Of a stretch of DNA of 64,000 nt, positions 2,411 to 16,332 are shown in pieces; positions within the stretch are counted from its first letter, which is position 1, and every line of letters begins with the position of its first letter. The stretch lies in the NCBI GenBank assembly GCA_018655525.1, contig JABIJM010000002.1, forward strand, positions 109,575 through 173,574, given 5' to 3'. Made by a program: the position numbers and the translations under genes. Under the pieces are notes generated by a model, which did not search any database, was not told where the DNA came from, and saw only the letters and a list, made by a program, of their open reading frames with translations. Origin of the DNA: Candidatus Woesearchaeota archaeon (GTDB taxonomy: Archaea; Nanobdellota; Nanobdellia; Woesearchaeales; GW2011-AR9).

Positions 2411-2414
2411 AATA

Positions 2415-5400
2415 ATGAGTAAACAAAAAAAAGGTGTGTCTGTACTGATGATTTTCCTCATCTTAGTTTTACCAATCTATTCTGCACAAGTTCTTGCAGT
2501 GAATGTACAAATAAATACAAACACCGGATTAGCTGGTGTTGATGGATTCATTGATGCAACCGGAGATACATGGACTGTGCAAGCATTAGTTACAAGTCCA
2601 CCCACAGATGTGCAACCTGAAGATTTAATCTTACAAATTGGCACAAATTCTGCAAAATTCAATTCATGTGGTGATGATACATTAGGAAAATTATGTAAAT
2701 ATGAAAGCCCATTATCTGGTGGTGTGAAAGAAGGGTCACATCCATTCCAAGTAATCTATCAACCAGCAGGAGGCGCAGAATTAGCTTCAGATTCTAGTAT
2801 TATTACATCAGATGGATCTGGACCAACAATTTCAACAGTTAATGCATTTCAACAAGAAGGTGTTGTATTAATGACATTTACAGTTATTGAAGATGTTGAT
2901 GGGTCTGGAATCAAAAAAATAGAAATTTTAAATGCAAAATCAAGTGAAGTATTATTTACGAAAGAAATTCCTGCGAATACAAAAACCTATACATATAATG
3001 CAGAAGACGGAAAAATAGAACTACAAGGTGAAGGGCAACAGTATGTGAAAGTACGTGCAGAAGATAATCTTGGCCATGTATCTGTTTCTAATGTTGTTTC
3101 TTTCTCAGGAGACTTCGTTCCGCCTGTTATTATAGAAGATTCACTTGAATTAGTAGATTTAGGAAAATTTATCGGTCAATTTGAATCAACAACAGATATT
3201 TCTGTAAGTGTTAAAGAAAAAACAATTCCTCTTGTTACCGCATTATCAGAAGAAGCTAAAATTACAACTTCTGCAGAATGTGAAGATGATTTAACCGTTG
3301 TAGATTTATGGCATTGTACGTTTAAGAACGTGAAAGTATTTTCAGAGAGTAATACAGTGTCATTACAAGTGAAAGCCGTAGATTCAGCAGGTAATCAGGA
3401 TATAAAAACAATTACAAAGACATTAAGTAAAGATGCATCCTCACCAACTGTAAAATTCTTAGGAACAACACAAACATATAATGGGAAAAGTTTTATTAAA
3501 TCCGGTGAAAACAAAATTATTTTAATTGCAAGCGATGTTGGTTCCGGTGTAGATTTTAAATCTATTCGTGCTAATCTAAAAGGCATTGGGGGAGATTTAA
3601 GTATATCCCCAGATGCTTGTTATCAAGATGGAAAAGATACGATTTGTGTTTGGGAACAATCTAAAATATTTAGTTCTGATGAAATTATTCGTATTGGATT
3701 ATCACAGTTTAAAGATATTGCAGGAAATGAAGGAGATTTAAAAGAAGTAGAATTGTTTTCTGACATCTCAGAACCCAAAGTTGGAAAAATAGAAATCTAT
3801 GGTGGAGATAAAACATTCTTTCAAAGTAATGATCAATTAAAAATCAAAGTTAAGATTGCCGAAGAAAATGGATTACAAGTTCTTGTAAACCTAAATGATG
3901 TCGTGATGGATGCAGAAACTCTTTACCCTGCAACTGAGATCTCTGAAAAAGGATGGAAATTATTTACAGAAGAACAATGTACACGTCAAGATGGTGAAAC
4001 CGAATGGAATTGTGAATTTGTAACGGACACCATTAAATCAGGACCAGACATATTTAATTTGCAAGTAGCAGTTCATGATACTGCAGGAAATAATGCAGAA
4101 GAATGGGCGAAAAAACCCCTTAATGTAGAATCTGGTGATAAAGGAAATTATAGAATTAAGTTACTTGGATTAGATAGTGAAGCAAATCCAAATTATTGGG
4201 AAAAGTTATCTGCTGTACCTTTAGTAAAATTTGTAGATTTAGATACAACCAAATTAACACGTACCAGAATTCCATTTAATGTTCAATTTAAAAGTAAAAA
4301 AGCAAAAATGTTATCTTTAGATATTGTAGGATGTAAGCCTAAGGGTGAAAGTCCAGCTATCTCTAAAGGAAGTGTTAAGATTACAGAAAAAGGTTCAGGA
4401 GAAGATGTACCTTTGACAGAAAATCCTTCAGAAGAAGCTTCAAGTCTTCAATTAAGCCGTACATTAATAACTGGAAAGAACTTTCCAGGAGGAGATGTAT
4501 CACCAACATCCACAAAATTAATCATGGAATTCCAACCATTTGATGGTCATGAAATGTTTAATATTGGTGAAGAAGATGAATTTACAAAAGCAGAAGTAGA
4601 ATTTACATGTCAATTTAGATTATTCTCACAAGTTGGAAATTCTGCATTAAAAGCAGCAGAGATTCAAGAAATTGATGTAACTGTGCCATTTGCATTTTCT
4701 AAACTAGGTGCAGTTGATGAAAATATTGACAACAAAATACAAGATATCAAAGATGACATATGGTTTAAAATTCCAGATAGATTAGCAGTTGTTAATGACG
4801 TGTTGAAAATTGTAAGATATATTGGTCCGATTGTAAGTGTCTTGAAAAGTCTCAATGTTTTTTTTAACTTAGCCAATGGAAATATGGATGAAGTTAGAAC
4901 TTCCATTCCTGTTTATGGTCCTGCAGCTGCAATTAGTTCCTGTACAGCAACCGAAAATGTAATCCAAAAAGGATTGTGGGAAGGATTTGCAGTTTTTGAT
5001 GTAACTTTACAAGTATTATCATGTAACCCAGGACCTGCACCAACAACATGGTATGGAAAATATCAAAAAAATGTCTTAAATTTTTTTAATGCCTATAAAA
5101 GTCTTGGTATGAAACAAGATACAAGTTTATATGATAATATTTATTTATCATCGGCAGGATTATGTATTCCAGGCGTAATTCACAATTTAGAAAAATGGAG
5201 ACAAATTCAATGCATCCAGATAGATTGTTTACAAAACGTTGTTCCATCAGGAGCAGCAACAGTATCAAGCTGTGAAAAGATAAATGACATCTTAACATGT
5301 AAATATTTTACCGGAGAATTAGTTGGTATGTTTATCCCAATGACCGGATTAACAAAAGGAGTAAAAGATATGATTAAGGCAGCATTAACAAACCCAGTTG

Positions 5401-5606
5401 GTTTAGTCCGTGCAGGATTAACATTAGGTTGTTCGGCAAGTTGCGTTACATCAGGAACCGGCACAGCCTTCTGTGATTATGTTGGAATTGGAGTATTAGC
5501 AGTTGATACCATTGAAAATGTTATTGGATTAGTACAATCATACCCTACCATCAGTCAAGATTACTGCTCAAGAATAGGAGAAACAGGAACTAGTTTCCTC
5601 AGCTAA
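2415..5606 (+). CDS. Large secreted cysteine-rich surface protein (1063 aa)
   Basis: Starts 5 nt after the upstream stop. The N-terminal basic leader plus hydrophobic segment (MSKQKKGVSVLMIFLILVLPIYSAQVLA) is a Sec-type or class III-like signal. Sequence is Thr/Ser/Val-rich and beta-rich. The C-terminal 250 aa are Cys-rich. No catalytic motif recognised. Confidence 0.5.
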   Translation: MSKQKKGVSVLMIFLILVLPIYSAQVLAVNVQINTNTGLAGVDGFIDATGDTWTVQALVTSPPTDVQPEDLILQIGTNSAKFNSCGDDTLGKLCKYESPLSGGVKEGSHPFQVIYQPAGGAELASDSSIITSDGSGPTISTVNAFQQEGVVLMTFTVIEDVDGSGIKKIEILNAKSSEVLFTKEIPANTKTYTYNAEDGKIELQGEGQQYVKVRAEDNLGHVSVSNVVSFSGDFVPPVIIEDSLELVDLGKFIGQFESTTDISVSVKEKTIPLVTALSEEAKITTSAECEDDLTVVDLWHCTFKNVKVFSESNTVSLQVKAVDSAGNQDIKTITKTLSKDASSPTVKFLGTTQTYNGKSFIKSGENKIILIASDVGSGVDFKSIRANLKGIGGDLSISPDACYQDGKDTICVWEQSKIFSSDEIIRIGLSQFKDIAGNEGDLKEVELFSDISEPKVGKIEIYGGDKTFFQSNDQLKIKVKIAEENGLQVLVNLNDVVMDAETLYPATEISEKGWKLFTEEQCTRQDGETEWNCEFVTDTIKSGPDIFNLQVAVHDTAGNNAEEWAKKPLNVESGDKGNYRIKLLGLDSEANPNYWEKLSAVPLVKFVDLDTTKLTRTRIPFNVQFKSKKAKMLSLDIVGCKPKGESPAISKGSVKITEKGSGEDVPLTENPSEEASSLQLSRTLITGKNFPGGDVSPTSTKLIMEFQPFDGHEMFNIGEEDEFTKAEVEFTCQFRLFSQVGNSALKAAEIQEIDVTVPFAFSKLGAVDENIDNKIQDIKDDIWFKIPDRLAVVNDVLKIVRYIGPIVSVLKSLNVFFNLANGNMDEVRTSIPVYGPAAAISSCTATENVIQKGLWEGFAVFDVTLQVLSCNPGPAPTTWYGKYQKNVLNFFNAYKSLGMKQDTSLYDNIYLSSAGLCIPGVIHNLEKWRQIQCIQIDCLQNVVPSGAATVSSCEKINDILTCKYFTGELVGMFIPMTGLTKGVKDMIKAALTNPVGLVRAGLTLGCSASCVTSGTGTAFCDYVGIGVLAVDTIENVIGLVQSYPTISQDYCSRIGETGTSFLS

Positions 5607-5608
5607 AA

Positions 5609-8600
5609 ATGAAAAAACTAACCTTAATAATTGTACTTTTGCTTATGTTATCTAGTGTAGTCTACGCTGCAGAAGAAGTAGAAACAAATAATTGCGATGG
5701 ATTCTGGGGAAGCTTGAAATGCTTCTTAGTTGGGGATGCAGAGAATCGTGCTGGAATGAGTTGGTTTGATAGAAGCGAGAATTTAGTTGGTTTTGCTGGA
5801 GTTGTTCCAGATGGTTGGCAAAATAAACCTGCTGGAATTTATAAAGGTAAAGATGGAAAGTTATATGTTGTTGGTGTTGCTAAAAATAGAGGAATTGTTG
5901 ATCTTGCAAGAAAAGCAGCAATCGACAATGCAAAACAACAAATGGCAGAAGCAACAGGGGAATCTAATTTTAAATCAATAGCTCCAAATCAAAATTTTAA
6001 GGATGACAAGAATAAGTTATATAAAACCCTTATTGTAATTATTCCTGAAACTCCTGGGCAAAAAACTGATGTTCTAGCTTTAATGAAAAAAGTAGGAGAT
6101 AATGGTTATATGCCTACATTAGAAGATGTTCCAGTTTCACCACCGCAACCAACTCAACCTGATCAACCACAAGGTGCAACGTTGAATAAAGATTCCGTTC
6201 AATTAACTCCTAATGATTACAATACGAAGACTCCATTAACCAAAGACCAATATAAAGCTAAATTTCCAGATAATACTCCCGGTGATTATAATACTTATAG
6301 AAACATTTGGCCTTCTGTAAAATTTGAATCACAAGTAAAAAAGAATTATGATGTGAAGGATGTTAAAGTACAATCCTCAACATTAAATGGTGTGACAACA
6401 GGTCAAATAACAATCACAAAAAAAGATGGAACACAAGTTAAAATTCCTTATACTCGTGATTTAGATGATGATGTTGATAAGGGGAAGGATTTAGATCAAG
6501 TTGTGAATAAATATCTCAGTCAAAATTCAAATACTGCGAGTTTACCACCTAAATCATCTACACCTTCACCAATTGTTGTTCCACCTCTAACAAAAACTCC
6601 AACCTCCCAATCTGTATCCGCTCCAATAATTGTTCCTGCTAAAATTAAATCTGAAGTAAAAAATTCAGGAGCTCTTTCACTTTGTCAACCAACATCTCAA
6701 AAAGGATTATGTAGAGTTTCAGCGGGTGAATCTTTTAATATATTATACAAAGATGCTGAAGGAAACTTTAATCCAGTAACAAGCATCAAAGGAAAAGATA
6801 TTACTTATGATAAATCTAAAGGAACAACAGATCATACTAAAGTTACAGGAGCAGTTAATATCCTTGTTGCAAAGAAGGCTGGAGTGACAGGAGTTCCTGC
6901 AACTTCTGCACCGGTTGTTGTATCACCTACAGCACCAGCTGCACCTACCCCCGTTCCTCAAGTAATAAAGGATCTTGAAACTAAATGTAATAATGATGAT
7001 GCGAACGCTTGTTTTAATTTAGGTGTAAAATATGAATTTGGAGTTTCAGGTGTTGATAAAAATATTCCTAAATCCAAACAATTATTTAGAAAATCTTGTT
7101 TATTTGAATCTGGTGGTATAGCTTGTTCTAGTGCATTAGGTGTTGATTATGAGAACAAACCAAGTATCAAAACATATCAAGACAAATGGATCACTCAAAA
7201 ATGCCCTGATGGAGTATGTCCGACAGGAACAACGTGTATTGGAATAATTTCAAGCGGTAAATGTAAATCAAATGGAGAATTGACTGGTGAAACAGTCGCT
7301 GCAATGAAAGCAGATGTACAAACCGCTAACTTTGCTGAACCTGGAGCAGCAACACCAACTCCTTCACCAGTTCCCCCATCTTCAGCAGTACCTACACCTG
7401 CTCCTCAAACTCCAACTCAAATATCACCTGCACAAGTAGAAGCAGCAACACCACAACTAACTGATTCAGCAAAACAGATCTCAATTAAAAGTAATGGAGC
7501 TGGTGGGGCTGATATTTTGAAAAATAATGCTAAAATTACTGCTACACAAGGTGATATTACTGTAAATGGTGTTCGTCTTGATGGAGATAAAATAGTTGTT
7601 GATGCTACTAAAAAAATGTTATGGGGTGCCTATGATGGAACTGGAGACCTTGGAAGTTTTGAAAAGCAACCTGATGGTTCAGTCAAATTTATTCCTGGAG
7701 ATGATTATAATAAACTCGAAGGAGAACAAAGAACAGATTTTGATGAATTTAAGGACATGATGGTAAAAAGTCCGTCTGCTTTTAAGAAAGTTCAGGATAC
7801 AATTAAAAGTGATAGTATAGATGAAACAGTAACTGCACCAGAATTACGAGATGAAGCTAAGAAAGATGTAAAGGCAACTTTAGAAGCTAAGAAAAAAGCT
7901 GCGACTGGCGGTGATCCAACTAAACCTACTTCAGGAGAAAAAGCGAAAAAAATTTCACAAGCAGGTGGTCAAACTCCAGCTCCTACTCACGATAAAGTTA
8001 ATGAAAAACTTTTGAAGGAAGGAAAAGATCTCTATAAAAGGGGAAAAATTAAAGAAGCTGTTAAAAAGTTTGAAGAAGCTTGTGACAAAGGAAATGGCGC
8101 TTCCTGTGCAAATTTAGGTAATTTATATGGTTCTGGTTCCGCTGAAATTCCGAAAGATCAAGTCAAAGCTAATAGTTTATTCAAGAAAGCATGTGATGAT
8201 GGTACTGCTATTGCATGTAATTATTTAGGTGCAAATTATCAAGCCGGTGAAGGTATCACCAAGAACCAAGCTAAAGCTAATGAACTTTTTAAGAAAGGTT
8301 GTGAAAATGGTAACGCAGTTTCATGTAATAATCTCGCACAAAATTATTATCATGGGGATGGAGTTCCATCTGATTATGATAAAGCTAATAATCTTTTTGA
8401 AATTAGTTGTAATACAGGGAATGCAAATGCTTGTGCTTCTTTAGGATACAATTATCAAAAAGGTCTTGGTTATACTGTGAATAAAAATAAAGCTATGGAA
8501 CATTATGCTACATCTTGTAAATTAGGAGGAGATGATTCTTATTGTGCAGCAGCTGTAGGAATTACAGACGCTGATATTACAGGAGTAAAAAAATATAAAT

Positions 8601-10648
8601 CTAGTTGGATTGCAAATCATTGTACAAATGGAAAAAATTGTGATTCGCCTTGCATTGGTACAACAGCAAATGGAGTTTGCACTTCAAATGATGTATTAGA
8701 TCATAAAACAAATGCTGAGATACGAAAAGATGCTGAAGGAAGAGCACCAGCAACTGTTAAAAAGAATAAAAAGGGAGAAGGAGACTTAGGAAATTTAGGA
8801 AAAACTAGTAAAAATAGTCAACTCCCACCAATTACAAGTATTGCAACTGTTGGCATTACAGCTGCAGAAAAATCTAAGTTATTAAATGGTGGATTTAAAC
8901 TTGTAACATCAAGTGCAGGTAAAGTAACTTCTGAACTCAAAGGAGAAAACGGTGATCTCATCACACGTACGTGGGAAACAAATGGTGTGTTAGGAACCAA
9001 ATTCACAGAAAAAAAAGTAGAAAAAGGAAAACCAATCTCGGAAACAACAGAATTTATTGATAAAAATGGAAAAAAGGTTTATACACAAATTACAACAAAA
9101 GATGCAAAAGGAAATGATATCACAAAAGTAAATCATGAAAGTGGTATTTCCTTTAATCCAGATCCTGCAACATGGGATAAGAAAACGGGTTCATGTACAA
9201 AAGGAACTGCCTGTCTAAGAGCAACTTCTGGAGAATTTGCAGGACGTGCGCATTTACAAGCTTCTGAAAATGATTATGATCCCGTTCCATTTACGGTTGA
9301 AGAATTTGGTAAAGGAGATAACATTGAACGAACATTAAGTTATCAAATCATGATTGATGGTAAACTTGTTGAAATCAATGTAGATCAAGAATGTAATAAA
9401 GATTGTGATGCAGGAATAGAATCAGATGAAAGACAAGTAGGATATAAATTATTTACAGCAGATTATACTTCACATTCAACAGATTACACAACAGGAGAAA
9501 GAACTCACTATGAACGAAGCCAAGGATTATTTGGACAAATTCCAAATGGTGTTGGTGTAGGTTGTAATAAAGCTACAAAACAATGTGGTAAAAACTTTTA
9601 CTTTAGTTCTGATAATGATTATGTTTGTACAACACCTAAATGTACAAGTGAAAATGGTGTGGATTTAGATGAACAAGGTGCAGCTTTGGGTTCAGTGGTT
9701 TTAGAGGATGGAAAATTGGCTTCTGAAAAAGAACCAAAATGGCACCAATCAGTTTGTGGTTATGATAAAGCTTGTATTGAAGGTATTCAAGAAACAAACT
9801 CCGATAGATCAACACAACTATTCTTTGCAGGTAAACAAGAATGGCAACAAGCAGGAGCACAGATTCTTAATGGATTTAATGGATGGAGTGGAATCTCAAA
9901 TGCGTTAGTTGGTGATCTTTACGCAAATGAACTTGCATCAGATATTGACAGATGGTTTGCAGGTTCTATACTCTCAGAAGAATATTGGGAATCATCAGTA
10001 TGTTATGAAACGCCTGTAGACACACAGAATGACGGATTTGCATTCATTGAACGTCCGGGTGGAATTACTGGCACAGACTTCGTACCAGTTGCTGCGATTC
10101 AAGCAGAAATGTTTGAAGAGAAAACACCTTTATTATGTATGCATAATTTAGATGAAGAAGCAGAAGATGAATTTGTCTGTCCAAATAATTTATATTGCAA
10201 CCCAGATGACAGTTTCTGTTATGAAAATGAAGATGACGAAACACCAGTTAAAGCATATTTTTATAAAATCAGCTGGGGAGTTACAGCACCTTCAGATTTA
10301 GCATTCACACCATATGGAGATGAATCATCAGCTGTAGAGTTTGATTTAAAATTAGGTGATAAAAGATTAAATGATAAAACAATCAAACTGAAAAATGGTG
10401 AAACTGATAATAATCTGATTACACATTACAGTAATAATGATTATGAAAATGTTCAAGTATGTATCAAGTGGAAAAAAGCACCTATAACATATAGTCGTGG
10501 ATTTGGAAATAGTGGAACAGAACCCGTTAAAGATATTTGCTACACAATCAAAAAAGCAGAAATTGGAAATGTTATATTCACATCTGACACTGCAGCAGAA
10601 TCAGCTTCTGTAAACAATGGAGAAGTTACAATAAGTTCATCATGGTAA
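5609..10648 (+). CDS. Giant secreted protein (1679 aa) with Sel1-like repeat blocks, Cys-knot modules and Pro/Thr-rich linkers
   Basis: Signal peptide MKKLTLIIVLLLMLSSVVYA. Has P/T/Q-rich low-complexity linkers (PPQPTQPDQPQG; AATPTPSPVPPSSAVPTPAPQTPTQ). Two Sel1-like blocks carry paired Cys (xSCxNLGxxY...A/KxxLFKKxCxxG). Each block is followed by a short Cys-rich module (KCPDGVCPTGTTCIG... / HCTNGKNCDSPCIGT...). Starts 3 nt after the upstream ORF. Confidence 0.55.
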   Translation: MKKLTLIIVLLLMLSSVVYAAEEVETNNCDGFWGSLKCFLVGDAENRAGMSWFDRSENLVGFAGVVPDGWQNKPAGIYKGKDGKLYVVGVAKNRGIVDLARKAAIDNAKQQMAEATGESNFKSIAPNQNFKDDKNKLYKTLIVIIPETPGQKTDVLALMKKVGDNGYMPTLEDVPVSPPQPTQPDQPQGATLNKDSVQLTPNDYNTKTPLTKDQYKAKFPDNTPGDYNTYRNIWPSVKFESQVKKNYDVKDVKVQSSTLNGVTTGQITITKKDGTQVKIPYTRDLDDDVDKGKDLDQVVNKYLSQNSNTASLPPKSSTPSPIVVPPLTKTPTSQSVSAPIIVPAKIKSEVKNSGALSLCQPTSQKGLCRVSAGESFNILYKDAEGNFNPVTSIKGKDITYDKSKGTTDHTKVTGAVNILVAKKAGVTGVPATSAPVVVSPTAPAAPTPVPQVIKDLETKCNNDDANACFNLGVKYEFGVSGVDKNIPKSKQLFRKSCLFESGGIACSSALGVDYENKPSIKTYQDKWITQKCPDGVCPTGTTCIGIISSGKCKSNGELTGETVAAMKADVQTANFAEPGAATPTPSPVPPSSAVPTPAPQTPTQISPAQVEAATPQLTDSAKQISIKSNGAGGADILKNNAKITATQGDITVNGVRLDGDKIVVDATKKMLWGAYDGTGDLGSFEKQPDGSVKFIPGDDYNKLEGEQRTDFDEFKDMMVKSPSAFKKVQDTIKSDSIDETVTAPELRDEAKKDVKATLEAKKKAATGGDPTKPTSGEKAKKISQAGGQTPAPTHDKVNEKLLKEGKDLYKRGKIKEAVKKFEEACDKGNGASCANLGNLYGSGSAEIPKDQVKANSLFKKACDDGTAIACNYLGANYQAGEGITKNQAKANELFKKGCENGNAVSCNNLAQNYYHGDGVPSDYDKANNLFEISCNTGNANACASLGYNYQKGLGYTVNKNKAMEHYATSCKLGGDDSYCAAAVGITDADITGVKKYKSSWIANHCTNGKNCDSPCIGTTANGVCTSNDVLDHKTNAEIRKDAEGRAPATVKKNKKGEGDLGNLGKTSKNSQLPPITSIATVGITAAEKSKLLNGGFKLVTSSAGKVTSELKGENGDLITRTWETNGVLGTKFTEKKVEKGKPISETTEFIDKNGKKVYTQITTKDAKGNDITKVNHESGISFNPDPATWDKKTGSCTKGTACLRATSGEFAGRAHLQASENDYDPVPFTVEEFGKGDNIERTLSYQIMIDGKLVEINVDQECNKDCDAGIESDERQVGYKLFTADYTSHSTDYTTGERTHYERSQGLFGQIPNGVGVGCNKATKQCGKNFYFSSDNDYVCTTPKCTSENGVDLDEQGAALGSVVLEDGKLASEKEPKWHQSVCGYDKACIEGIQETNSDRSTQLFFAGKQEWQQAGAQILNGFNGWSGISNALVGDLYANELASDIDRWFAGSILSEEYWESSVCYETPVDTQNDGFAFIERPGGITGTDFVPVAAIQAEMFEEKTPLLCMHNLDEEAEDEFVCPNNLYCNPDDSFCYENEDDETPVKAYFYKISWGVTAPSDLAFTPYGDESSAVEFDLKLGDKRLNDKTIKLKNGETDNNLITHYSNNDYENVQVCIKWKKAPITYSRGFGNSGTEPVKDICYTIKKAEIGNVIFTSDTAAESASVNNGEVTISSSW
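7990..8540 (+). repeat. Four tandem ~36-aa Sel1-like repeats with paired cysteines (coding repeats inside the 1679-aa protein)
   Basis: The four repeat units are GNGASCANLGNLYGSGSAEIPKDQVKANSLFKKACDD, GTAIACNYLGANYQAGEGITKNQAKANELFKKGCEN, GNAVSCNNLAQNYYHGDGVPSDYDKANNLFEISCNT and GNANACASLGYNYQKGLGYTVNKNKAMEHYATSCKL. The periodicity and Cys pairing match the Helicobacter Hcp-type Sel1-like repeat family. A shorter block lies at about 6985-7150. Confidence 0.5.
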
Positions 10649-11460
10649 ATATAAAATCCTATTTTAAACTGGACAAAACATTTTTCAAAATCTTTGCCAT
10701 AGATTTTGTGACATTCTGGGGATTGATCCTCATCTTCCTTGCATCAAGCACTTTCTGGATCTCTAAAGTCTCTTCAGTATTACAAGGTCAATCAGTAGAA
10801 GGATTACAAAACTTCTTATTAACAGCACCAATTGGGCAAGTACAGGACTTTCAATCAGATTTAGTTACTTTTTTCGCAGGAATCATCATTTTCATGATTC
10901 TCACCTTATTGGCAATCACATTCTCACGTTCATTTGTATGGAAAACATTACACAAAAAATGGGTTCCATTCTACAAATGGTTTTTATTAGCATTAGAATT
11001 GATTATTCCTTCAACAATCTATTTCTTTGCTTTCTTTATTGTTAGAATTATCTTATTAGAGATTGTCAAATTCATAGGGAACACATCTTACAACTCTATA
11101 ATTGGATCTGGTGTATATCCACAATCATTAATTGACATAAGCACATTATATATCAATGTTTTAGGAATGATCTTATACTTAATCTTACTTTTCATAACCT
11201 TTGCATCATTCACATCTGAATTACGTGTTTTAAGGGCTGTAGAGAAATCTTATCATATCATGCGCAAACAGATCAAACAAATATCTAAACTCTTCCTCAT
11301 CGCAACAATTGTGGCTATAATCCTCTCTCTGGTTTTACTTCCATTCAGATTCACATTATCCTATCAACCAGTATTAACAATGTTTTTGAATTCTGTTCTT
11401 ACATTTATGTTTATTAGTTGGTTGAGATTCAATACCTCACGCCTTGTCACTCAAAAGTAA
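10642..11460 (+). CDS. Polytopic membrane protein (about 6 TM helices), unknown function
   Basis: Overlaps the stop of the giant protein by 7 nt, suggesting translational coupling. Has multiple long hydrophobic segments. Confidence 0.45.
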   Translation: MVNIKSYFKLDKTFFKIFAIDFVTFWGLILIFLASSTFWISKVSSVLQGQSVEGLQNFLLTAPIGQVQDFQSDLVTFFAGIIIFMILTLLAITFSRSFVWKTLHKKWVPFYKWFLLALELIIPSTIYFFAFFIVRIILLEIVKFIGNTSYNSIIGSGVYPQSLIDISTLYINVLGMILYLILLFITFASFTSELRVLRAVEKSYHIMRKQIKQISKLFLIATIVAIILSLVLLPFRFTLSYQPVLTMFLNSVLTFMFISWLRFNTSRLVTQK

Positions 11461-11499
11461 CAAAAAATTTATAAAGTATTATTCTAATTTTAGTATAAA

Positions 11500-12288
11500 A
11501 TGACACATAAATATTCTCCTTTGATAGCAACAATCATTGCATTATCAGGTTGTACTACTTTTAATTCATGTACTTCCTCACAAAGTGTCATTGAATATCA
11601 TATTGATGAATCACTTCAACCAAAAAGTTCAACTTCTCATACAGTTGTTGAAAAAGTGGTTAAACCAAGGATGCCCAAAATTGTACCAGAATCAGTAACT
11701 AAACCTAAAGGAACACTTTCATTTGGTCGTCCAGTATTTAATGAAAGATATCACAATCAAAATGAGGATTTAGAAGATTTATTGGAAGGACATACAGGTC
11801 AACGAAAAATTGTAATTGATAAATCTGCAAGAGAATTACAGATATACGTTGGTGATGAACTAATTAAATCTTATGGGATTTCATTAAGTAGACGACATCA
11901 ATCTGGGCCTAAACAAAGAAAAGGAGATCTTAAGACACCTGAAGGACATTTTTATGCTGCTCGTAAGAACCCTAATAGTAGATGGCATAAAGCAATTGTA
12001 ATAAGTTATCCTGGTAAAGAAGATGCAATACGTGGATTAAAAAAGGGAATTATAACAAAAAGACAATATACACAAATTTTGAAAGCTCAAGATGAATGTC
12101 GTGAACCTCCAAGAACAAATTTAGGATCTCTGGTAGAAATTCATGGTGCTGGTGGCGGACGATTTTATCAAGATTGGACACATGGTTGTGCTTCATTAAA
12201 TAATAGAGCTATGGATGAAGTTTATAAATTTACATTCACTGGATGTTATAAAGGAAAACCTAAAACTGAAATAATCATTAAGCGATAA
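11500..12288 (+). CDS. Lipoprotein with L,D-transpeptidase (YkuD/ErfK-like) catalytic domain
   Basis: N-terminal hydrophobic segment ends in a lipobox-like LSGC. The C-terminal region carries IHGAGGG-x13-THGCASLNN, which matches the H...[S/T]HGC catalytic signature of L,D-transpeptidases (PF03734). Confidence 0.55.
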   Translation: MTHKYSPLIATIIALSGCTTFNSCTSSQSVIEYHIDESLQPKSSTSHTVVEKVVKPRMPKIVPESVTKPKGTLSFGRPVFNERYHNQNEDLEDLLEGHTGQRKIVIDKSARELQIYVGDELIKSYGISLSRRHQSGPKQRKGDLKTPEGHFYAARKNPNSRWHKAIVISYPGKEDAIRGLKKGIITKRQYTQILKAQDECREPPRTNLGSLVEIHGAGGGRFYQDWTHGCASLNNRAMDEVYKFTFTGCYKGKPKTEIIIKR

Positions 12289-15001
12289 CTTGTTTCTTAA
12301 CATTTTCACATGCAGTTTCTTTTCCTGATGAAACAGCAACACAATTAATTCCTGTTGTTGTATAATACCATTCATTCCCTACTTTTTTATACCACGACCT
12401 TTGATTTAATGTTCGTTCTCCATGAACTGTTTTTAATTTTGAATAAACATTTTCTGTCATATCATCAAAAGAATTTGTAAGTGCAAATTGTTGTTCATAA
12501 TAAGGGGCTTTTCCATCATATCCTTGAATAGTTTGAAGATTAGGATATTTGTCAAGTAACCGTTTTGCACCTATACTGGAATGTTCTCTTATTTTTTGTT
12601 GTATCTCTTTAGAATCAGAAATCTCATTTTTTGGAGATTCTACATCAACTAATGGAGGTCCTTCATCTACTTCAGGACTCGTTAGTGAATTACAAGCACT
12701 AAAATATACATTTTTCACATTACCCTCAGGCATGTTAACAATATTAAAAGTATCAATAGGATTATAATCAGGGTTATCTAAAACTTCTGCTGGAGCAAGA
12801 CTGGATAATTTTGTTGGAGCTTCTCTAAAAAAATAATCACTATCTTTAAAGAAATGCCCTGTTACAACAATATTTTCACTTTTTGTACTTGGAGGTGAAT
12901 CTCTACTATTTACAACAATACATCCCTCAATACGGCATCTACTCTCAAGTAATTGAGCAGTATCGGGATTTTCTCCTGCCATTATTATTGTTGTTTTTGG
13001 CGTCCATGTTTTTCCCACATCAGCTTGGCTTTTACCAGCAGGAGGAATTACTTTCCCATATGCTTTTGCATATTCATATTCACATTCACTTGGAGCGCAT
13101 GTAACAAAACTATTTCTTTTTTTTCGTGACCAACTTCCAGATGAAGATTGATATGGTTTAGAAAAATAATTTTCAACAGCTTTAGGTTGAGTTGTACTTG
13201 AAGACCAATGTTTAACATAAGGTAATTTATCAACAATAACTTTCTCTGTTTTGACAGTCATTGTTGATTGGCCTCGTGAAGGAATAGGAATATGTTTCCC
13301 CCTTCCATCAACATAATCCCAACCATATTTTTTTGTAAATACTAATTTTCCTTCTACTCCATTAATATCTAATGAATTTGGTAACTGTGGTTTTGTATTA
13401 ACATTTTGATTCTTTTTAGGAGGAAGTATTACTCCTTGTTTTTTTGCTAATTCTTGTGCAGCAGTCCTTGAACCAGGATTTTTTGAAATATAAGTTGAAC
13501 TTGAAATTACTTTGTCAGATTCATAAGCATAATCAATTTTTCCAGCTCTAAATTTATTTAAATCTCCTTTTGTTGTAATTTCACCATTAGGGGAGAAAGT
13601 GACTGTTGAACTTTTTTGTAATTTTCGTAATTCTCTTCTAGCATCATTCAAATTAAGTTTACGTATTCTTCTTTTATCTTTTTCAGTAAGATCCATTGAA
13701 ATACTGTCAATTGAGATCTCACCTTGTGATAATCCCTCAACATTTATTTTATCAAAATAGGCTCTAGATGTGAAATCAATTTTTTTTAATTTATTAAATT
13801 CATAAAAACCTAATTCTTCACGGTATGGAGGGTCTGCATTTGCCCCTATTGAATTTACAATACATGGTTTAAATGCACAATAATCACGCGCTTTACTTCC
13901 GGTATTTGTTTTTTCTTCTGAATAAAATATTTTTTGATCTTCTTCATTTACCAAAGAAAAACTTGAAGTTGTTCCTGCAATAATTCCATTACGTCCCATG
14001 ATAAAACTTGTCATTTTGAACTCTTCTCCTTTCTTAGCTAAAATTGTAAATTTATCTCTTAGTAAACGTGGATCATCTTTATCCGCATTTCCATCAATAA
14101 TTGTTCCTGTAATTGTATAACCTGTCGGATTTATATATCCTTCATCTGTTTCATCTTCAGTTGCAAATCTATTGAATGACGTTCCTGAAACCATTAAATT
14201 ATCATATGTAAATTCACCAACATATTTAATTTTAACACCTTCTTGTTCAATAACCATAGCTCCAAATAAAACTTCGCCATCACCCGCGGGAATATTTAAT
14301 GTTTTTACCTTAAAATCTAAATCTGGTAATTTTCCACTTTCCTCATTAGATTTTACATCAACAATTCCACCTACTGTTGTTAAAACTCCATCAGCTTTAC
14401 CTGCACCAACGGTTCCATACATAGAAACACCTTCCTTTAGAACTAATGAACCATCCTCTAAAACCTTTGAATTAGGGAAGTCAGCAATATTAAACCCAGT
14501 TGGTTTTTCTCCATCTGTTAAAACTTTACCATCTTTAAAATCTTTTATTTTTCCACCATTATCTTCTATACCATATTTCCCAAACCATTTCTTTTTTACT
14601 TCAGGTTTATCATTAATTAATGTTGGAGTTTTTTCTATCCTTATATTCATATTTTTAAAAAGTTCATCATTATCAAGCAAATTAGGATCAGATGAAGTTG
14701 CTCTTAGAAAATTCACATCATCAATTTTAACTGCAATAGAAGGGTTGGATTGCATAGCATTTACAAGATTGACTGTACTTATTTCTCCAAAATTTGTGAC
14801 TTGTCCGGATTCAATTGCGGCAGCCAAATCAGGTCCATTCATTTGGTTATAATCAATTGTTACAGGAGTAACTTGTGTCCCTGAACCAGCAACATCAGCT
14901 GTTTGGCCTTGATTTAAAGGTGGTGGAACATAGGTATTAGCGGCATAACTAATCACTGCTAAAATCATACAAATCATTATTATTGTTATAACTTTTTTCA
15001 T
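12278..15001 (-). CDS. Large secreted surface protein (about 907-916 aa)
   Basis: Sec-type signal (MKKVITIIMICMILAVISYAANTY). An alternative upstream ATG at 15028 would add 9 aa. The protein is Gly/Thr/Val-rich and beta-rich. Its 3' end overlaps the 3' end of the plus-strand lipoprotein gene by 11 nt (convergent). It is the second gene of a minus-strand operon headed by the pilin-like gene. Confidence 0.5.
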   Translation of the reverse strand: MKKVITIIMICMILAVISYAANTYVPPPLNQGQTADVAGSGTQVTPVTIDYNQMNGPDLAAAIESGQVTNFGEISTVNLVNAMQSNPSIAVKIDDVNFLRATSSDPNLLDNDELFKNMNIRIEKTPTLINDKPEVKKKWFGKYGIEDNGGKIKDFKDGKVLTDGEKPTGFNIADFPNSKVLEDGSLVLKEGVSMYGTVGAGKADGVLTTVGGIVDVKSNEESGKLPDLDFKVKTLNIPAGDGEVLFGAMVIEQEGVKIKYVGEFTYDNLMVSGTSFNRFATEDETDEGYINPTGYTITGTIIDGNADKDDPRLLRDKFTILAKKGEEFKMTSFIMGRNGIIAGTTSSFSLVNEEDQKIFYSEEKTNTGSKARDYCAFKPCIVNSIGANADPPYREELGFYEFNKLKKIDFTSRAYFDKINVEGLSQGEISIDSISMDLTEKDKRRIRKLNLNDARRELRKLQKSSTVTFSPNGEITTKGDLNKFRAGKIDYAYESDKVISSSTYISKNPGSRTAAQELAKKQGVILPPKKNQNVNTKPQLPNSLDINGVEGKLVFTKKYGWDYVDGRGKHIPIPSRGQSTMTVKTEKVIVDKLPYVKHWSSSTTQPKAVENYFSKPYQSSSGSWSRKKRNSFVTCAPSECEYEYAKAYGKVIPPAGKSQADVGKTWTPKTTIIMAGENPDTAQLLESRCRIEGCIVVNSRDSPPSTKSENIVVTGHFFKDSDYFFREAPTKLSSLAPAEVLDNPDYNPIDTFNIVNMPEGNVKNVYFSACNSLTSPEVDEGPPLVDVESPKNEISDSKEIQQKIREHSSIGAKRLLDKYPNLQTIQGYDGKAPYYEQQFALTNSFDDMTENVYSKLKTVHGERTLNQRSWYKKVGNEWYYTTTGINCVAVSSGKETACENVKKQVIA

Positions 15002-16332
15002 TTGACTTCTAACTCCCACCGTTGCCATGTTGAACCATAATTATTAATTGCATCTACTCTAATATAATGTATTCCTACATTTTCAGGTGAAGGAGTAAAA
15101 TACATTTCTCCAGTCTTATTATTTATTTCAAAAAGGTATGTTCCTGATGAAAAAGATAAAGCACGTTCTGCATTAACTTTTAAAGAAAAGTTTGTGCCAA
15201 CATGTGCAACTTGTTTTTCAATTTTATTCATTTTTGGAGATAATTCATCTTCGATATTAATTGAAATTCGTAATGGGGCTACTTTTTCATTTCCAAAAGG
15301 ATCAATGACTTTTACATAATGTAAATATTCGTCATTACCTAATTTGACAGGATCTAATGAAATCACACCAGAGCTATCAATAGAAAATGTATCAGTATCT
15401 AATTCAAATTGTAATCCTTCGCCGAATGAAGGAACTTTTAATATTTTAATTCCATGCGTAGAAATTTTCCATGTTGGAATTTCATTTAATCCAAAAAATT
15501 CATAAAATAAAATATCTTTTACTGGTGGGATTTCTATTACTTTTTCTTCATCAAACGTCCAGTCAAATCCAAGAGCAAAATTCCATATAAAAGGATTTTG
15601 TCCGTTATCTTCATTTAAAATAATTTCAAAAAGAATATTTTCTCCATTTATACCATAATTTTGAAATTGAACTTGGATCCCCTCGTAAGACAAAGATTCT
15701 GATAGAGAACTTAATAATAATTCTTCCTTCATAGATTGAGTTTTTATAAATGAATTTACTTTTGCATAAGGTCCAATAAATTTTAGAGGAATTGACGTTT
15801 CAAAGACTCTCCGTTCCGCATTTTTTGATCCTAAGCTTACTTTAAAAGGAAATGTTAAATGTGTCATTAATTTTGTGTTTGTAAATTCTGATCTAATTAA
15901 AGGAACTCCGATATTAAATTTATAACCTTCTTTTTCAAAAGATTTGAAATTATTAATACATTCAAGAAATTTTGTTTCACTTATAGATGAAATACTCTCG
16001 GAAAATGTTGATAGTGAAGGAAACATTTTATTACTTTTATGTAAATAGAATGGTACGATTAATTTATCTGAACCTTCATTATATGTGAATCCTGCTAAAG
16101 AAGAACCAATGGTGGTATATCCTCCATTATTTAATACAATTGATGTTGATTCAGTAAGACTTTTTTCAAGACATGAACTTACAAACAATTCAACAGAATC
16201 TATATTAAATTGAACATCAGTAGGTAATTCTTCTATTGATGAAGATTTAACAAGTAAAATAATCAAAGCAGTAACAAATAACAGAATTATTCCTATAATT
16301 ATAAACACCGTAACCTGTCCTCTTTTATTCAT
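14998..16332 (-). CDS. Surface protein with archaeal class III (type IV pilin-like) signal peptide, paralog of the 68..2410 product
   Basis: N-terminus MNKRG|QVTVFIIIGIILLFVTALIIL has a short basic leader, then G-Q and a hydrophobic helix. The following LFVSSCLEKS...LNNGGY region resembles FIEGCVQDT...GEQGGY in the 780-aa protein. Confidence 0.55.
   Translation of the reverse strand: MNKRGQVTVFIIIGIILLFVTALIILLVKSSSIEELPTDVQFNIDSVELFVSSCLEKSLTESTSIVLNNGGYTTIGSSLAGFTYNEGSDKLIVPFYLHKSNKMFPSLSTFSESISSISETKFLECINNFKSFEKEGYKFNIGVPLIRSEFTNTKLMTHLTFPFKVSLGSKNAERRVFETSIPLKFIGPYAKVNSFIKTQSMKEELLLSSLSESLSYEGIQVQFQNYGINGENILFEIILNEDNGQNPFIWNFALGFDWTFDEEKVIEIPPVKDILFYEFFGLNEIPTWKISTHGIKILKVPSFGEGLQFELDTDTFSIDSSGVISLDPVKLGNDEYLHYVKVIDPFGNEKVAPLRISINIEDELSPKMNKIEKQVAHVGTNFSLKVNAERALSFSSGTYLFEINNKTGEMYFTPSPENVGIHYIRVDAINNYGSTWQRWELEVK

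What the first reader, a model, noticed from the sequence alone, without database searches (positions are those of the whole stretch)
11500..12288. L,D-transpeptidase-type catalytic motif in a lipoprotein of a peptidoglycan-less archaeon
The 262-aa lipoprotein ends in a domain with IHGAGGG...THGCASLNN, matching the His/Cys catalytic signature of YkuD-family L,D-transpeptidases. These enzymes act on bacterial peptidoglycan stem peptides. An archaeon without murein has no obvious substrate. The gene is the last member of the pilin/giant-protein operon. Possibilities are remodelling of a bacterial host or prey wall, cross-linking of its own surface proteins, or horizontal acquisition.
Basis: partly seen in the sequence, partly recalled or inferred. 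Interest (0 to 1): 0.65.

Follow-up and report, generated by a model that had tools for sequence, protein, structure and literature searches.

The report
Archaeal DpaA-like YkuD cell-wall peptidase
A tiny symbiotic-type archaeon with no bacterial-style cell wall carries a well-conserved, surface-anchored enzyme of the bacterial YkuD family, but of the bond-cutting (DpaA/carboxypeptidase-like) type, not the cross-linking type, so it most likely cuts the walls of neighbouring bacteria.

Summary

The interpretation needs three corrections.
1. The enzyme lacks the Arg two residues after the catalytic Cys that cross-linking L,D-transpeptidases have (S232 here; A/G/S in all 83 relatives). By sequence it matches only the hydrolase-type members with solved structures (DpaA, Bd1075, Csd6, Pgp2). 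"Transpeptidase" is therefore unlikely.
2. It is not a one-off. It belongs to a diverse Woesearchaeota/Nanoarchaeota clade marked by a co-varying Cys200-Cys249 pair, with bacterial relatives at 40-47% identity.
3. It has its own conserved archaeal BRE/TATA promoter, so it is not the tail of the giant-protein operon. The conserved linkage is with two convergent, fast-evolving surface-protein genes.

The most likely role is hydrolysis of bacterial peptidoglycan peptides or peptidoglycan-protein tethers, for scavenging or host contact. That is inferred, not shown. It is a moderately interesting new variant of a known kind.

The parts
11460..11475 (+). Archaeal promoter: A-rich BRE-like stretch (11460-11467) plus TATA box TTTATAAA (11468-11475), 24 nt upstream of the ATG. 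This implies a leaderless or very short-leader transcript.
   Evidence: Sequence read. The same 'aaaaa(g/t)TTTATA(A/T)A' lies at a similar distance (about 12-25 nt before the start codon) upstream of the homologues in L007, L008, L009, L010, L030 and L090. TTTAWAWA starting 26-45 nt upstream is found for 14 of 66 window ORFs against 1.3% of random positions.
11500..12288 (+). CDS of the 262-aa YkuD-domain lipoprotein (stop codon included).
   Evidence: Identical to an NCBI protein named 'L,D-transpeptidase family protein [Candidatus Woesearchaeota archaeon]'.
11500..11553 (+). Signal peptide with lipobox L15-S16-G17-C18. The predicted lipid-anchored residue is Cys18 (11551-11553).
   Evidence: Read directly from the sequence. 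Many family members carry a lipobox at the same place. Lipoproteins and the AliA lipidation enzyme are reported as prevalent in DPANN (PMC12462473).
11554..11742 (+). Low-complexity, poorly conserved linker (aa 19-81), predicted disordered.
   Evidence: pLDDT 47-70 over these blocks and almost no secondary structure. The region does not align across the family.
11743..12285 (+). YkuD-fold catalytic domain (aa 82-262). The Pfam match covers aa 102-245 (11803-12234).
11923..11946 (+). G142-D-L-K-T146-P-E-G149 motif, shared with DpaA, Bd1075, Csd6 and Pgp2.
   Evidence: D143, T146, P147 and G149 are identical in all 83 sequences tabulated; G142 is invariant in A1 and at least 90% conserved in A3. 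The motif aligns to GDxKTPEG/GDLKTPxG in the solved hydrolase-type YkuD proteins.
12016..12123 (+). Two-helix insert of about 35 aa (aa 173-208, KEDAIRGLKKGIITKRQYTQILKAQDECREPPRTNL) between the SYP strand and the catalytic His. It contains Cys200 (12097-12099).
   Evidence: Helices 173-181 and 187-198 in the model. The insert is absent from DpaA (8ikr) and from the short (about 170 aa) bacterial relatives. It is present in the long bacterial relatives.
12142..12144 (+). Catalytic His215 codon.
   Evidence: Invariant. Aligned with the His of the IHG motif in Csd6, Pgp2 and Bd1075.
12187..12195 (+). Catalytic Cys230 (12187-12189), Ala231 and Ser232 (12193-12195). Ser232 occupies the position where cross-linking LDTs have Arg.
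   Evidence: Cys is invariant. Position +2 is A/G/S in all 83 sequences and never R. The significance of the Arg comes from PMC8263019.
12244..12246 (+). Cys249 codon, the predicted disulfide partner of Cys200.
   Evidence: Co-variation: in the archaeal plus unlabelled clade, 36 sequences have both Cys, 4 have neither and none has one alone. Labelled bacteria: 24 have neither and 6 Myxococcota-type sequences have only the first.
12278..15028 (-). Convergent, 3'-overlapping partner gene: a 916-aa secreted protein with no known family. Its C-terminal domain has invariant His725 (12854-12856) and Cys779 (12692-12694).
   Evidence: Homologues lie convergent to the YkuD gene in L007, L008, L010, L012 and L090. 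There is no Pfam or PDB match.
14998..16332 (-). First gene of the partner transcription unit: a 444-aa protein with a class III (type IV pilin-like) signal peptide, MNKRGQVTVFIIIGIILL. It overlaps the start of the 916-aa gene by 31 nt.
   Evidence: Homologues at 30-35% identity sit in the same position in L008, L010, L012 and L090. It is a paralogue of the 780-aa protein at 68-2410.

Best explanation
The gene encodes an extracellular, lipid-anchored cysteine peptidase or amidase with the YkuD fold. It belongs to the arginine-less, hydrolase-type branch of that superfamily, the branch that contains DpaA/LdtF/YafK and the LD-carboxypeptidases Csd6, Pgp2 and Bd1075. Shown: the fold; the invariant His215/Cys230 pair; the absence of the transpeptidase-associated Arg; the lipobox; the archaeal host; the gene's own archaeal promoter; and a diversified archaeal clade with a co-varying Cys200-Cys249 pair. 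Inferred: an ancestor of these Woesearchaeota/Nanoarchaeota acquired the gene from bacteria, and it has since been inherited and domesticated. The protein is exported, lipidated at Cys18 and held off the membrane by a linker of about 60 residues. Cys230, activated by His215, attacks an amide bond at a diaminopimelate or D-amino-acid centre of a bacterial peptidoglycan stem peptide. The acyl-enzyme is then resolved by water rather than by an amine acceptor. The result would be trimming of stem peptides or release of proteins tethered to peptidoglycan. Because the archaeon has no murein, the substrate would be the wall of bacteria it contacts, or wall debris. That would serve envelope access or amino-acid scavenging. 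The enzyme probably works alongside the two conserved, fast-evolving surface proteins encoded next to it.
For: Hydrolase-type branch: a family profile hits only DpaA, Bd1075, Csd6 and Pgp2 among all PDB sequences at E<=0.01. The best NCBIfam model is LdtF_DpaA_YafK. Position Cys+2 is Ser in the query and A/G/S in 83 of 83 relatives. PMC8263019 states that DpaA-like proteins and LD-carboxypeptidases lack this Arg and that DpaA has no transpeptidase activity.
Ancestral peptidoglycan context: bacterial relatives at 40-47% identity occur in Acidobacteriota, Myxococcota, Desulfobacterota, Nitrospirota and others. In two Acidobacteriota the gene follows yjeF-tsaE, and in a Desulfobacterales locus it lies next to a second YkuD gene.
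Real archaeal gene: same contig as the archaeal core operon in many independent assemblies; conserved BRE/TATA; named Woesearchaeota/Nanoarchaeota members; conserved three-gene neighbourhood despite different flanks.
Against: There is no biochemical evidence. No peptidoglycan-binding module (LysM, PG_binding) is present. No other peptidoglycan-directed gene lies in the 64-kb window, and the rest of the genome could not be inspected. The score against the DpaA equivalog model is far below its cut-off (43.8 against 365 bits), so substrate specificity cannot be transferred. The missing-Arg rule is an empirical correlation, not a proof of hydrolase chemistry. The conserved neighbours are archaeal surface proteins of unknown function, which fits a self-directed role equally well. 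The phylogeny is unresolved (NJ bootstrap 2-4% for the archaeal clade), so the direction and donor of transfer are inferred from taxonomic distribution only.
Confidence: 0.5

Rival explanations
1. Self-directed surface enzyme. The YkuD protein processes, releases or covalently links the archaeon's own envelope proteins, for example the neighbouring 916-aa secreted protein and the 444-aa pilin-signal protein. This would be a peptidoglycan-independent use of the fold, either sortase-like or isopeptidase-like.
For: The YkuD gene, the 916-aa homologue and the 444-aa homologue stay together in at least six archaeal loci whose outer flanks differ. All three evolve much faster than their surroundings: 43%, 31% and 35% identity between the window and L008, against 77-88% for adjacent genes. 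This is the pattern expected of co-evolving surface components. DpaA chemistry is cleavage of a protein-Lys isopeptide bond (PMC8263019), so protein substrates are within the family's repertoire.
Against: All characterised YkuD enzymes need a D-centre (meso-DAP or D-Ala) in the acyl donor, and none is known in archaeal surface proteins (established knowledge of the family). Convergent genes are not co-transcribed, and the YkuD gene has its own promoter. Bacterial relatives sit in cell-wall contexts. No recognisable sorting motif was found, and the partner domains could not be assigned to any fold.
Confidence: 0.17
2. A genuine L,D-transpeptidase. It forms or exchanges bonds, for example by incorporating amines or D-amino acids into a bacterial host's peptidoglycan, or by cross-linking.
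Confidence: 0.1
3. An assembly or binning artefact, or a decaying relic of a recent bacterial transfer with no function in the archaeon.
For: The family is overwhelmingly bacterial. Bacterial relatives reach 47% identity, close to the 43-62% seen among archaeal ones.
Against: The gene lies between archaeal genes on a 253-kb contig and was assembled identically in many samples. Its G+C matches the surroundings at about 32%. It has a conserved archaeal promoter. The ORF is intact with all 12 family-invariant residues. A syntenic orthologue exists at 62% identity overall and 75% in the domain. About 40 diverged relatives (clusters at 50% identity) group with the archaeal sequences and share the Cys pair.
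Confidence: 0.03

Closest known systems
DpaA (LdtF/YafK), the peptidoglycan meso-DAP protein amidase of E. coli; PDB 8ikr
   Same: YkuD fold. It is the best sequence and Foldseek match. It shares the GDxKTPEG motif and the IHG...GC(x)A...N active-site pattern, has no Arg at Cys+2, is a single-domain secreted protein and has no peptidoglycan-binding module.
   Different: Only 28-34% identity. It scores 43.8 bits against the NF040599 cut-off of 365. The window protein has a two-helix insert of about 35 aa before the catalytic His, a C-terminal extension with a co-varying Cys pair, a lipobox and a long linker, and its host is an archaeon that has neither Lpp nor murein.
LD-carboxypeptidases Csd6 (H. 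pylori), Pgp2 (C. jejuni) and Bd1075 (Bdellovibrio)
   Different: Those proteins carry additional domains (a C-terminal NTF2-like domain, from my own knowledge of the structures). The window protein ends with the YkuD domain. Identity is 17-25%.
Canonical L,D-transpeptidases (B. subtilis YkuD, LdtMt2, E. coli LdtA-E)
   Different: They have Arg at Cys+2 and usually a conserved His before Gly-Cys. Here Cys+2 is Ser, and the pre-Gly position varies across the family (H/W/L/F/Y/D/A). None is hit by the family profile at E<=0.01.
Tlde1/Tae5, T6SS antibacterial effectors with an altered LD-transpeptidase fold
   Different: It is a distant structural relative, is delivered by a T6SS with an immunity protein, and is bacterial.
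Peptidoglycan-directed enzymes already reported in Woesearchaeota/Pacearchaeota (giant GH23 lytic transglycosylase proteins; muramoyl-tetrapeptide carboxypeptidase)
   Same: Bacterial-type murein enzymes in murein-less DPANN archaea, interpreted as tools for bacterial hosts, prey or necromass (PMC8204110, PMC9723730, PMC11537232).
   Different: They belong to different folds and cleave different bonds. I found no paper describing a YkuD family in DPANN, and it is absent from the survey of archaeal peptidoglycan hydrolases in PMC12352652.

Membership tests
YkuD / PF03734 superfamily | Profile match above the curated gathering score | tested here: met
   54.4 bits against 23.4, E=2.8e-14, nearly full-length profile coverage.
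YkuD / PF03734 superfamily | Catalytic His followed 14-17 residues later by x-G-C...N | tested here: met
   H215, then 14 residues, then C230, with T227-H-G-C-A-S-L-N234. His and Cys are invariant in 83 sequences and align to the IHG...GC motif of solved members.
YkuD / PF03734 superfamily | YkuD beta-sandwich fold | tested here: met
YkuD / PF03734 superfamily | His and Cys side chains juxtaposed in the active site | not testable with these tools
This is only inferred from the alignments to solved structures.
Cross-linking L,D-transpeptidases (LdtA-E, LdtMt2, YkuD sensu stricto) | Conserved Arg two positions after the catalytic Cys | tested here: not met
   Ser232 in the query; A/G/S in 83 of 83 relatives. 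The criterion is from PMC8263019.
Cross-linking L,D-transpeptidases (LdtA-E, LdtMt2, YkuD sensu stricto) | Transpeptidase activity on stem peptides, or acylation by carbapenems | not testable with these tools
   Requires biochemistry.
DpaA/LdtF/YafK (NCBIfam NF040599 equivalog) | Score at or above the curated equivalog cut-off | tested here: not met
   43.8 bits against 365. It is the best-scoring NCBIfam model, but the protein is not an equivalog.
DpaA-like / LD-carboxypeptidase-like (Arg-less) branch of YkuD | Small residue instead of Arg at Cys+2, plus the GDxKTPEG motif at the start of the domain | tested here: met
   S232 (family consensus Ala) and G142-D-L-K-T-P-E-G149. Only DpaA, Bd1075, Csd6 and Pgp2 are recovered from PDB by the family profile.
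DpaA-like / LD-carboxypeptidase-like (Arg-less) branch of YkuD | Hydrolytic activity on meso-DAP-linked bonds | not testable with these tools
   Requires muropeptide or sacculus assays.
Csd6/Pgp2-type LD-carboxypeptidases | Multi-domain architecture with a C-terminal NTF2-like domain | tested here: not met
   The protein ends at the YkuD domain (aa 262), and no other Pfam domain is found. The architecture of Csd6/Pgp2 is recalled from knowledge.
Lipobox lipoproteins | Signal peptide ending in [LVI][ASTVI][GAS]C | tested here: met
   L15-S16-G17-C18 after K4 and a hydrophobic core. The motif definition and DPANN prevalence come from PMC12462473. Actual lipidation was not tested.

The most novel reading that the evidence does not exclude
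The YkuD enzyme has been recruited into a three-gene surface module specific to Nanoarchaeota/Woesearchaeota. The module comprises the YkuD lipoprotein, a 700-900-aa secreted protein with an uncharacterised invariant His/Cys domain, and a protein with a type IV pilin signal. In this reading the enzyme acts on the archaeon's own surface proteins, cutting or forming isopeptide links. That would be the first peptidoglycan-independent substrate for the YkuD fold and a new way of building or remodelling an archaeal cell surface or host-attachment organelle.
Probability: 0.15. Interest if true: 0.75.

Novelty: new variant of a known kind. Interest (0 to 1): 0.42.

Why it matters
Whether Woesearchaeota and related DPANN archaea live on bacteria rather than on other archaea is an open question. 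Until now it has rested mainly on the presence of GH23 lytic transglycosylase domains. A second, independent and conserved class of murein-type enzyme adds weight to that idea. It is surface-anchored, runs from a native archaeal promoter, keeps its active site intact, evolves fast like a host-interaction factor, and sits beside two equally fast-evolving surface proteins. The soluble domain is small (about 180 aa), so it can be expressed and tested on defined muropeptides. The finding also shows that the database label 'L,D-transpeptidase family protein' is probably wrong in chemistry for this clade. If the enzyme instead acts on archaeal proteins, it would extend the YkuD fold beyond peptidoglycan.

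Tried and rejected
1. Phylogeny. An NJ tree of 83 domain sequences groups all labelled archaeal sequences except L030, together with nearly all unlabelled top hits, next to a Myxococcota group that includes L030. Bootstrap support is negligible: 2-4% for the clade, and labelled archaea separate from labelled bacteria in only 20 of 100 replicates. I therefore make no claim about monophyly or donor from the tree. I rely instead on the Cys-pair signature and on synteny.
2. Partner protein function. The 916-aa and 444-aa proteins gave no Pfam hit and no significant PDB sequence hit, either alone or as a profile of the C-terminal domain. A homologue search with that profile returned only 2 proteins. 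The resulting 3-sequence AlphaFold model had pLDDT 47, and its Foldseek search had no hit at E<=1e-3. My guess that the VVTGH...FSACN pattern is a caspase-like His/Cys protease is therefore unsupported.
3. The afdb50 fold library was unavailable.
4. The first search for related loci attempt with the full alignment failed for lack of a conserved stretch. A trimmed alignment worked.
5. Taxonomic labels for the high-G+C family members (P0030, P0044, P0047) could not be obtained. Their context (L088, 62% G+C, followed by a 1795-aa protein and an S8 peptidase) is uninformative.
6. No other peptidoglycan-related gene, tRNA or Rfam RNA was found in the window.
7. Assembly artefact or contamination was considered and rejected.
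8. dN/dS between the window gene and its 62% orthologue was not attempted, because synonymous sites would be saturated.

Full report
**What is there.** ORF 11500-12288 (+) encodes 262 aa (numbering verified).
- The N-terminus MTHKYSPLIATIIALSGC has the n-region, h-region and lipobox (L15-S-G-C18) of a lipoprotein signal peptide.
- Residues 19-81 are low-complexity, do not align between relatives and are predicted disordered.
- Residues 82-262 form one compact domain.
- Pfam assigns aa 102-245 to YkuD (PF03734) with E=2.8e-14 and 54.4 bits against a cut-off of 23.4.
- An AlphaFold2 model built on 84 homologues has pLDDT >90 across the domain.
- H215 and C230 are invariant in every alignment I made. 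They align with the IHG...GC active-site motif of Csd6, Pgp2, Bd1075 and DpaA.
- I could not measure the His-Cys geometry because model coordinates are not exposed.

**The host is an archaeon and the gene belongs to it.**
- 4.4 kb downstream lies the archaeal operon S13-S4-S11-RpoD(Rpb3)-L18e-L13-S9-RpoN, followed by a single ORF combining the small and large primase subunits.
- The rest of the window carries L21e, Rpb4, RpoL, ELP3, Nre, PAC2 and DUF655.
- G+C is uniform at about 32%.
- The identical protein is in NCBI as 'L,D-transpeptidase family protein [Candidatus Woesearchaeota archaeon]'. It occurs in the same context on contigs assembled independently from many samples, one of them 253 kb long. 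Contamination or chimerism is excluded.

**Which kind of YkuD protein it is.**
- The best NCBIfam model is LdtF_DpaA_YafK, though far below its equivalog cut-off (43.8 against 365 bits).
- The best PDB sequence match and the best Foldseek match are both DpaA, 8ikr.
- A profile of the closest family members recovers only four solved proteins at E<=0.01: DpaA, Bd1075, Csd6 and Pgp2. These are the amidase and the LD-carboxypeptidases of the superfamily. No cross-linking enzyme is recovered.
- Winkle et al. (PMC8263019, read) showed that DpaA has no transpeptidase or carboxypeptidase activity and instead cleaves Lpp from meso-DAP. [quoted passage not shown]
- In the window protein that position is Ser232. 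In 83 of 83 relatives it is Ala, Gly or Ser.
- I conclude that it works like a DpaA/LD-carboxypeptidase-type hydrolase. It is a member of the YkuD superfamily and of its Arg-less branch. It is not an equivalog of DpaA and is unlikely to be a transpeptidase.

**The family.**
- An exhaustive search of 1.84 billion cluster representatives found 3,580 relatives at E<=1e-3 and 44 at E<=1e-30.
- The top hits are 220-290 aa with the same architecture: a signal peptide, often with a lipobox; a variable linker; and a YkuD domain carrying a two-helix insert of about 35 aa (EDAxRGLxxGLIxxxQ...CxxPPQNTxLG) before the catalytic His.
- Every top hit for which a source supplies an organism name is Woesearchaeota or Nanoarchaeota.
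- In species-representative genomes the best matches are Woesearchaeota, Nanoarchaeota and two MAGs labelled 'Methanosarcinales' (label unverified), at 44-50% identity.
- These are followed by many bacteria at 38-48%: Pyrinomonadaceae and other Acidobacteriota, Myxococcota including Labilithrix luteola, Desulfobacterota, Nitrospirota and Planctomycetota.
- The bacterial long forms share the insert. Shorter (about 170 aa) Bacteroidota-type proteins lack it.
- A signature separates the archaeal-type clade: Cys200 in the insert and Cys249 in a C-terminal extension (FAxxGCxxxGxPxT). Among labelled archaeal plus unlabelled top hits, 36 have both, 4 have neither and none has one alone. Labelled bacteria have neither (24) or only the first (6, Myxococcota-type). 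This co-variation predicts a disulfide staple, which fits an extracellular enzyme.
- An NJ tree groups the archaeal-type sequences next to the Myxococcota group. Bootstrap support is negligible.
- Bacterial origin is therefore inferred from taxonomic distribution, and the donor lineage is unknown.

**Transcription and neighbourhood.**
- The 39-nt spacer upstream of the gene contains an A-rich BRE-like stretch plus TTTATAAA at 11460-11475, ending 24 nt before the ATG.
- The same element is present upstream of the homologues in all seven archaeal loci examined, although the proteins are only 43-62% identical; it ends 22-25 nt before the start codon in six of them and about 12 nt before the called TTG start in L010.
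- Across the window, TTTAWAWA starting 26-45 nt upstream occurs for 14 of 66 ORFs against 1.3% of random positions. It is present before the 780-aa gene at position 68 but absent before the 1063-, 1679- and 272-aa genes that follow it.
- The giant-protein operon (68-11460) and the YkuD gene therefore have separate promoters.
- Upstream neighbours differ among loci. What is conserved is the convergent pair downstream: a 444-aa protein with a class III (type IV pilin-like) signal peptide, MNKRGQVTVFIIIG, followed by an overlapping gene for a 916-aa secreted protein whose 3' end overlaps the YkuD stop by 11 nt.
- Homologues of both occupy the same positions in L008, L010, L012 and L090, and partially in L007, even where the outer flanks are unrelated.
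- In L008, a close relative (ribosomal proteins 80-88% identical, the upstream 272-aa membrane protein 77%), the trio has diverged to 43% (YkuD), 31% and 35%. This marks a fast-evolving surface module in a conserved backbone.
- The catalytic domain is nevertheless under constraint: 75% identity in the domain against 62% overall to the nearest orthologue, and all family-invariant residues are kept.

**Function.**
- Nothing in the window makes or needs murein, and Woesearchaeota are not known to have it (established knowledge).
- Bacterial relatives sit in cell-wall-type contexts. In two Acidobacteriota the gene follows yjeF-tsaE, the slot where E. coli has the amidase gene amiB (from my own knowledge of that operon). 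In a Desulfobacterales locus it lies beside a second YkuD gene.
- The literature already reports bacterial-type murein enzymes in Woesearchaeota and Pacearchaeota and interprets them as evidence for bacterial hosts, prey or necromass use. Examples are giant extracellular GH23 lytic transglycosylase proteins and muramoyl-tetrapeptide carboxypeptidase (PMC8204110, PMC9723730, PMC11537232).
- One archaeal locus carrying the same trio has an S66 (LdcA-type) peptidase gene about 6.4 kb away.
- YkuD-like folds are used as antibacterial effectors (Tlde1).
- Lipobox lipoproteins and the AliA lipidation enzyme are reported as prevalent in DPANN (PMC12462473).
- The best-supported model is therefore a lipid-anchored, disulfide-stabilised, outward-facing Cys/His hydrolase that trims bacterial stem peptides or severs peptidoglycan-protein tethers. 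I put this at about 0.5.
- The main rival is action on the archaeon's own surface proteins, suggested by the conserved trio. I put this at about 0.17.
- True transpeptidation (about 0.1) and artefact or relic (about 0.03) are less likely.

**Novelty.**
- The protein is already auto-annotated in NCBI, and murein-directed enzymes in these archaea are a known theme.
- In full-text searches I found no description of a YkuD family in DPANN. It is also absent from the text and supplements of the recent survey of archaeal peptidoglycan hydrolases, PMC12352652.
- The following appear to be new observations: the Arg-less assignment, the archaeal-clade Cys pair, the native promoter and the conserved fast-evolving three-gene module.
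- I rate it a new variant of a known kind, of moderate interest.

Noticed in passing
window 12278-15028 (-), especially 12281-13228: The 916-aa secreted protein convergent to the YkuD gene has a conserved C-terminal domain of about 300 aa. It carries invariant His725 (VVTGH) and Cys779 (FSACN) plus several invariant Cys residues. It has no Pfam or PDB match, and only 2 database homologues were found by word-indexed search. It could be an uncharacterised Cys/His enzyme.
   Followed up: partly
window 14998-16332 (-) and 68-2410 (+): These are paralogous proteins (444 and 780 aa) sharing the class III, type IV pilin-like signal peptide K(R/K)GQVTVFIIIGIIL. Further paralogues flank the YkuD trio in L010.
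   Followed up: partly
window 20403-21854 (-): A single 483-aa ORF matches both the small (PF01896) and the large (PF04104) primase subunit, i.e. a fused PriS-PriL primase.
   Followed up: no
window 5609-10648 (+): A 1679-aa signal-peptide protein with two blocks of Sel1 repeats (Pfam E=3.9e-31). It is the third gene of a four-gene operon (780, 1063, 1679 and 272 aa) with one TATA box at about -37 of the first gene. Its C-terminus and the 272-aa membrane protein are 65% and 77% identical in L008.
   Followed up: partly
L009 4921-7464 (-), next to the YkuD homologue at 4039-4914: In a MAG labelled 'Methanosarcinales' (39% G+C), the convergent neighbour is not the 916-aa homologue. It is an 847-aa protein whose C-terminus carries a canonical-looking YkuD motif (IHPN...SHGCMHIAPTN), so the locus has two different YkuD-type genes side by side. 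The other flanking genes (409 and 428 aa) have no homologue among the window's neighbourhood proteins and were not identified.
   Followed up: no
L090 548-1579 (-): An archaeal contig (with class I LysRS) that carries the same YkuD, 728-aa and 441-aa trio also encodes a Peptidase_S66 (LdcA-type L,D-carboxypeptidase) about 6.4 kb from the YkuD gene.
   Followed up: no
L017 3268-6459 and L024 3362-6450: In two Acidobacteriota the long-form YkuD relative directly follows yjeF (NAD(P)HX repair) and tsaE. In E. coli that position is occupied by the murein amidase gene amiB.
   Followed up: no
window, genome-wide: TTTAWAWA starts 26-45 nt upstream of 14 of 66 ORF start codons (background 1.3%), which suggests mostly leaderless or short-leader transcripts. 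No tRNA gene and no Rfam family were found in 64 kb.
   Followed up: partly
window about 21.9-41.2 kb and 41.9-63.8 kb (exact ORFs not resolved): Batch Pfam scans show a LAGLIDADG_3 domain ORF in the first stretch. The second stretch has a phage-type integrase, a TaqI-like restriction endonuclease with an N6/N4 DNA methylase, and three DEAD/ResIII helicases. This may be an integrated element or defence island.
   Followed up: no
L088 809-9570: A 62% G+C contig carries a family member that has the archaeal-type Cys pair (P0235), followed by a 1795-aa protein and an S8 peptidase. The organism is unknown. Either the Cys-pair clade is not restricted to low-G+C Nanoarchaeota, or it also occurs in bacteria.
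   Followed up: partly
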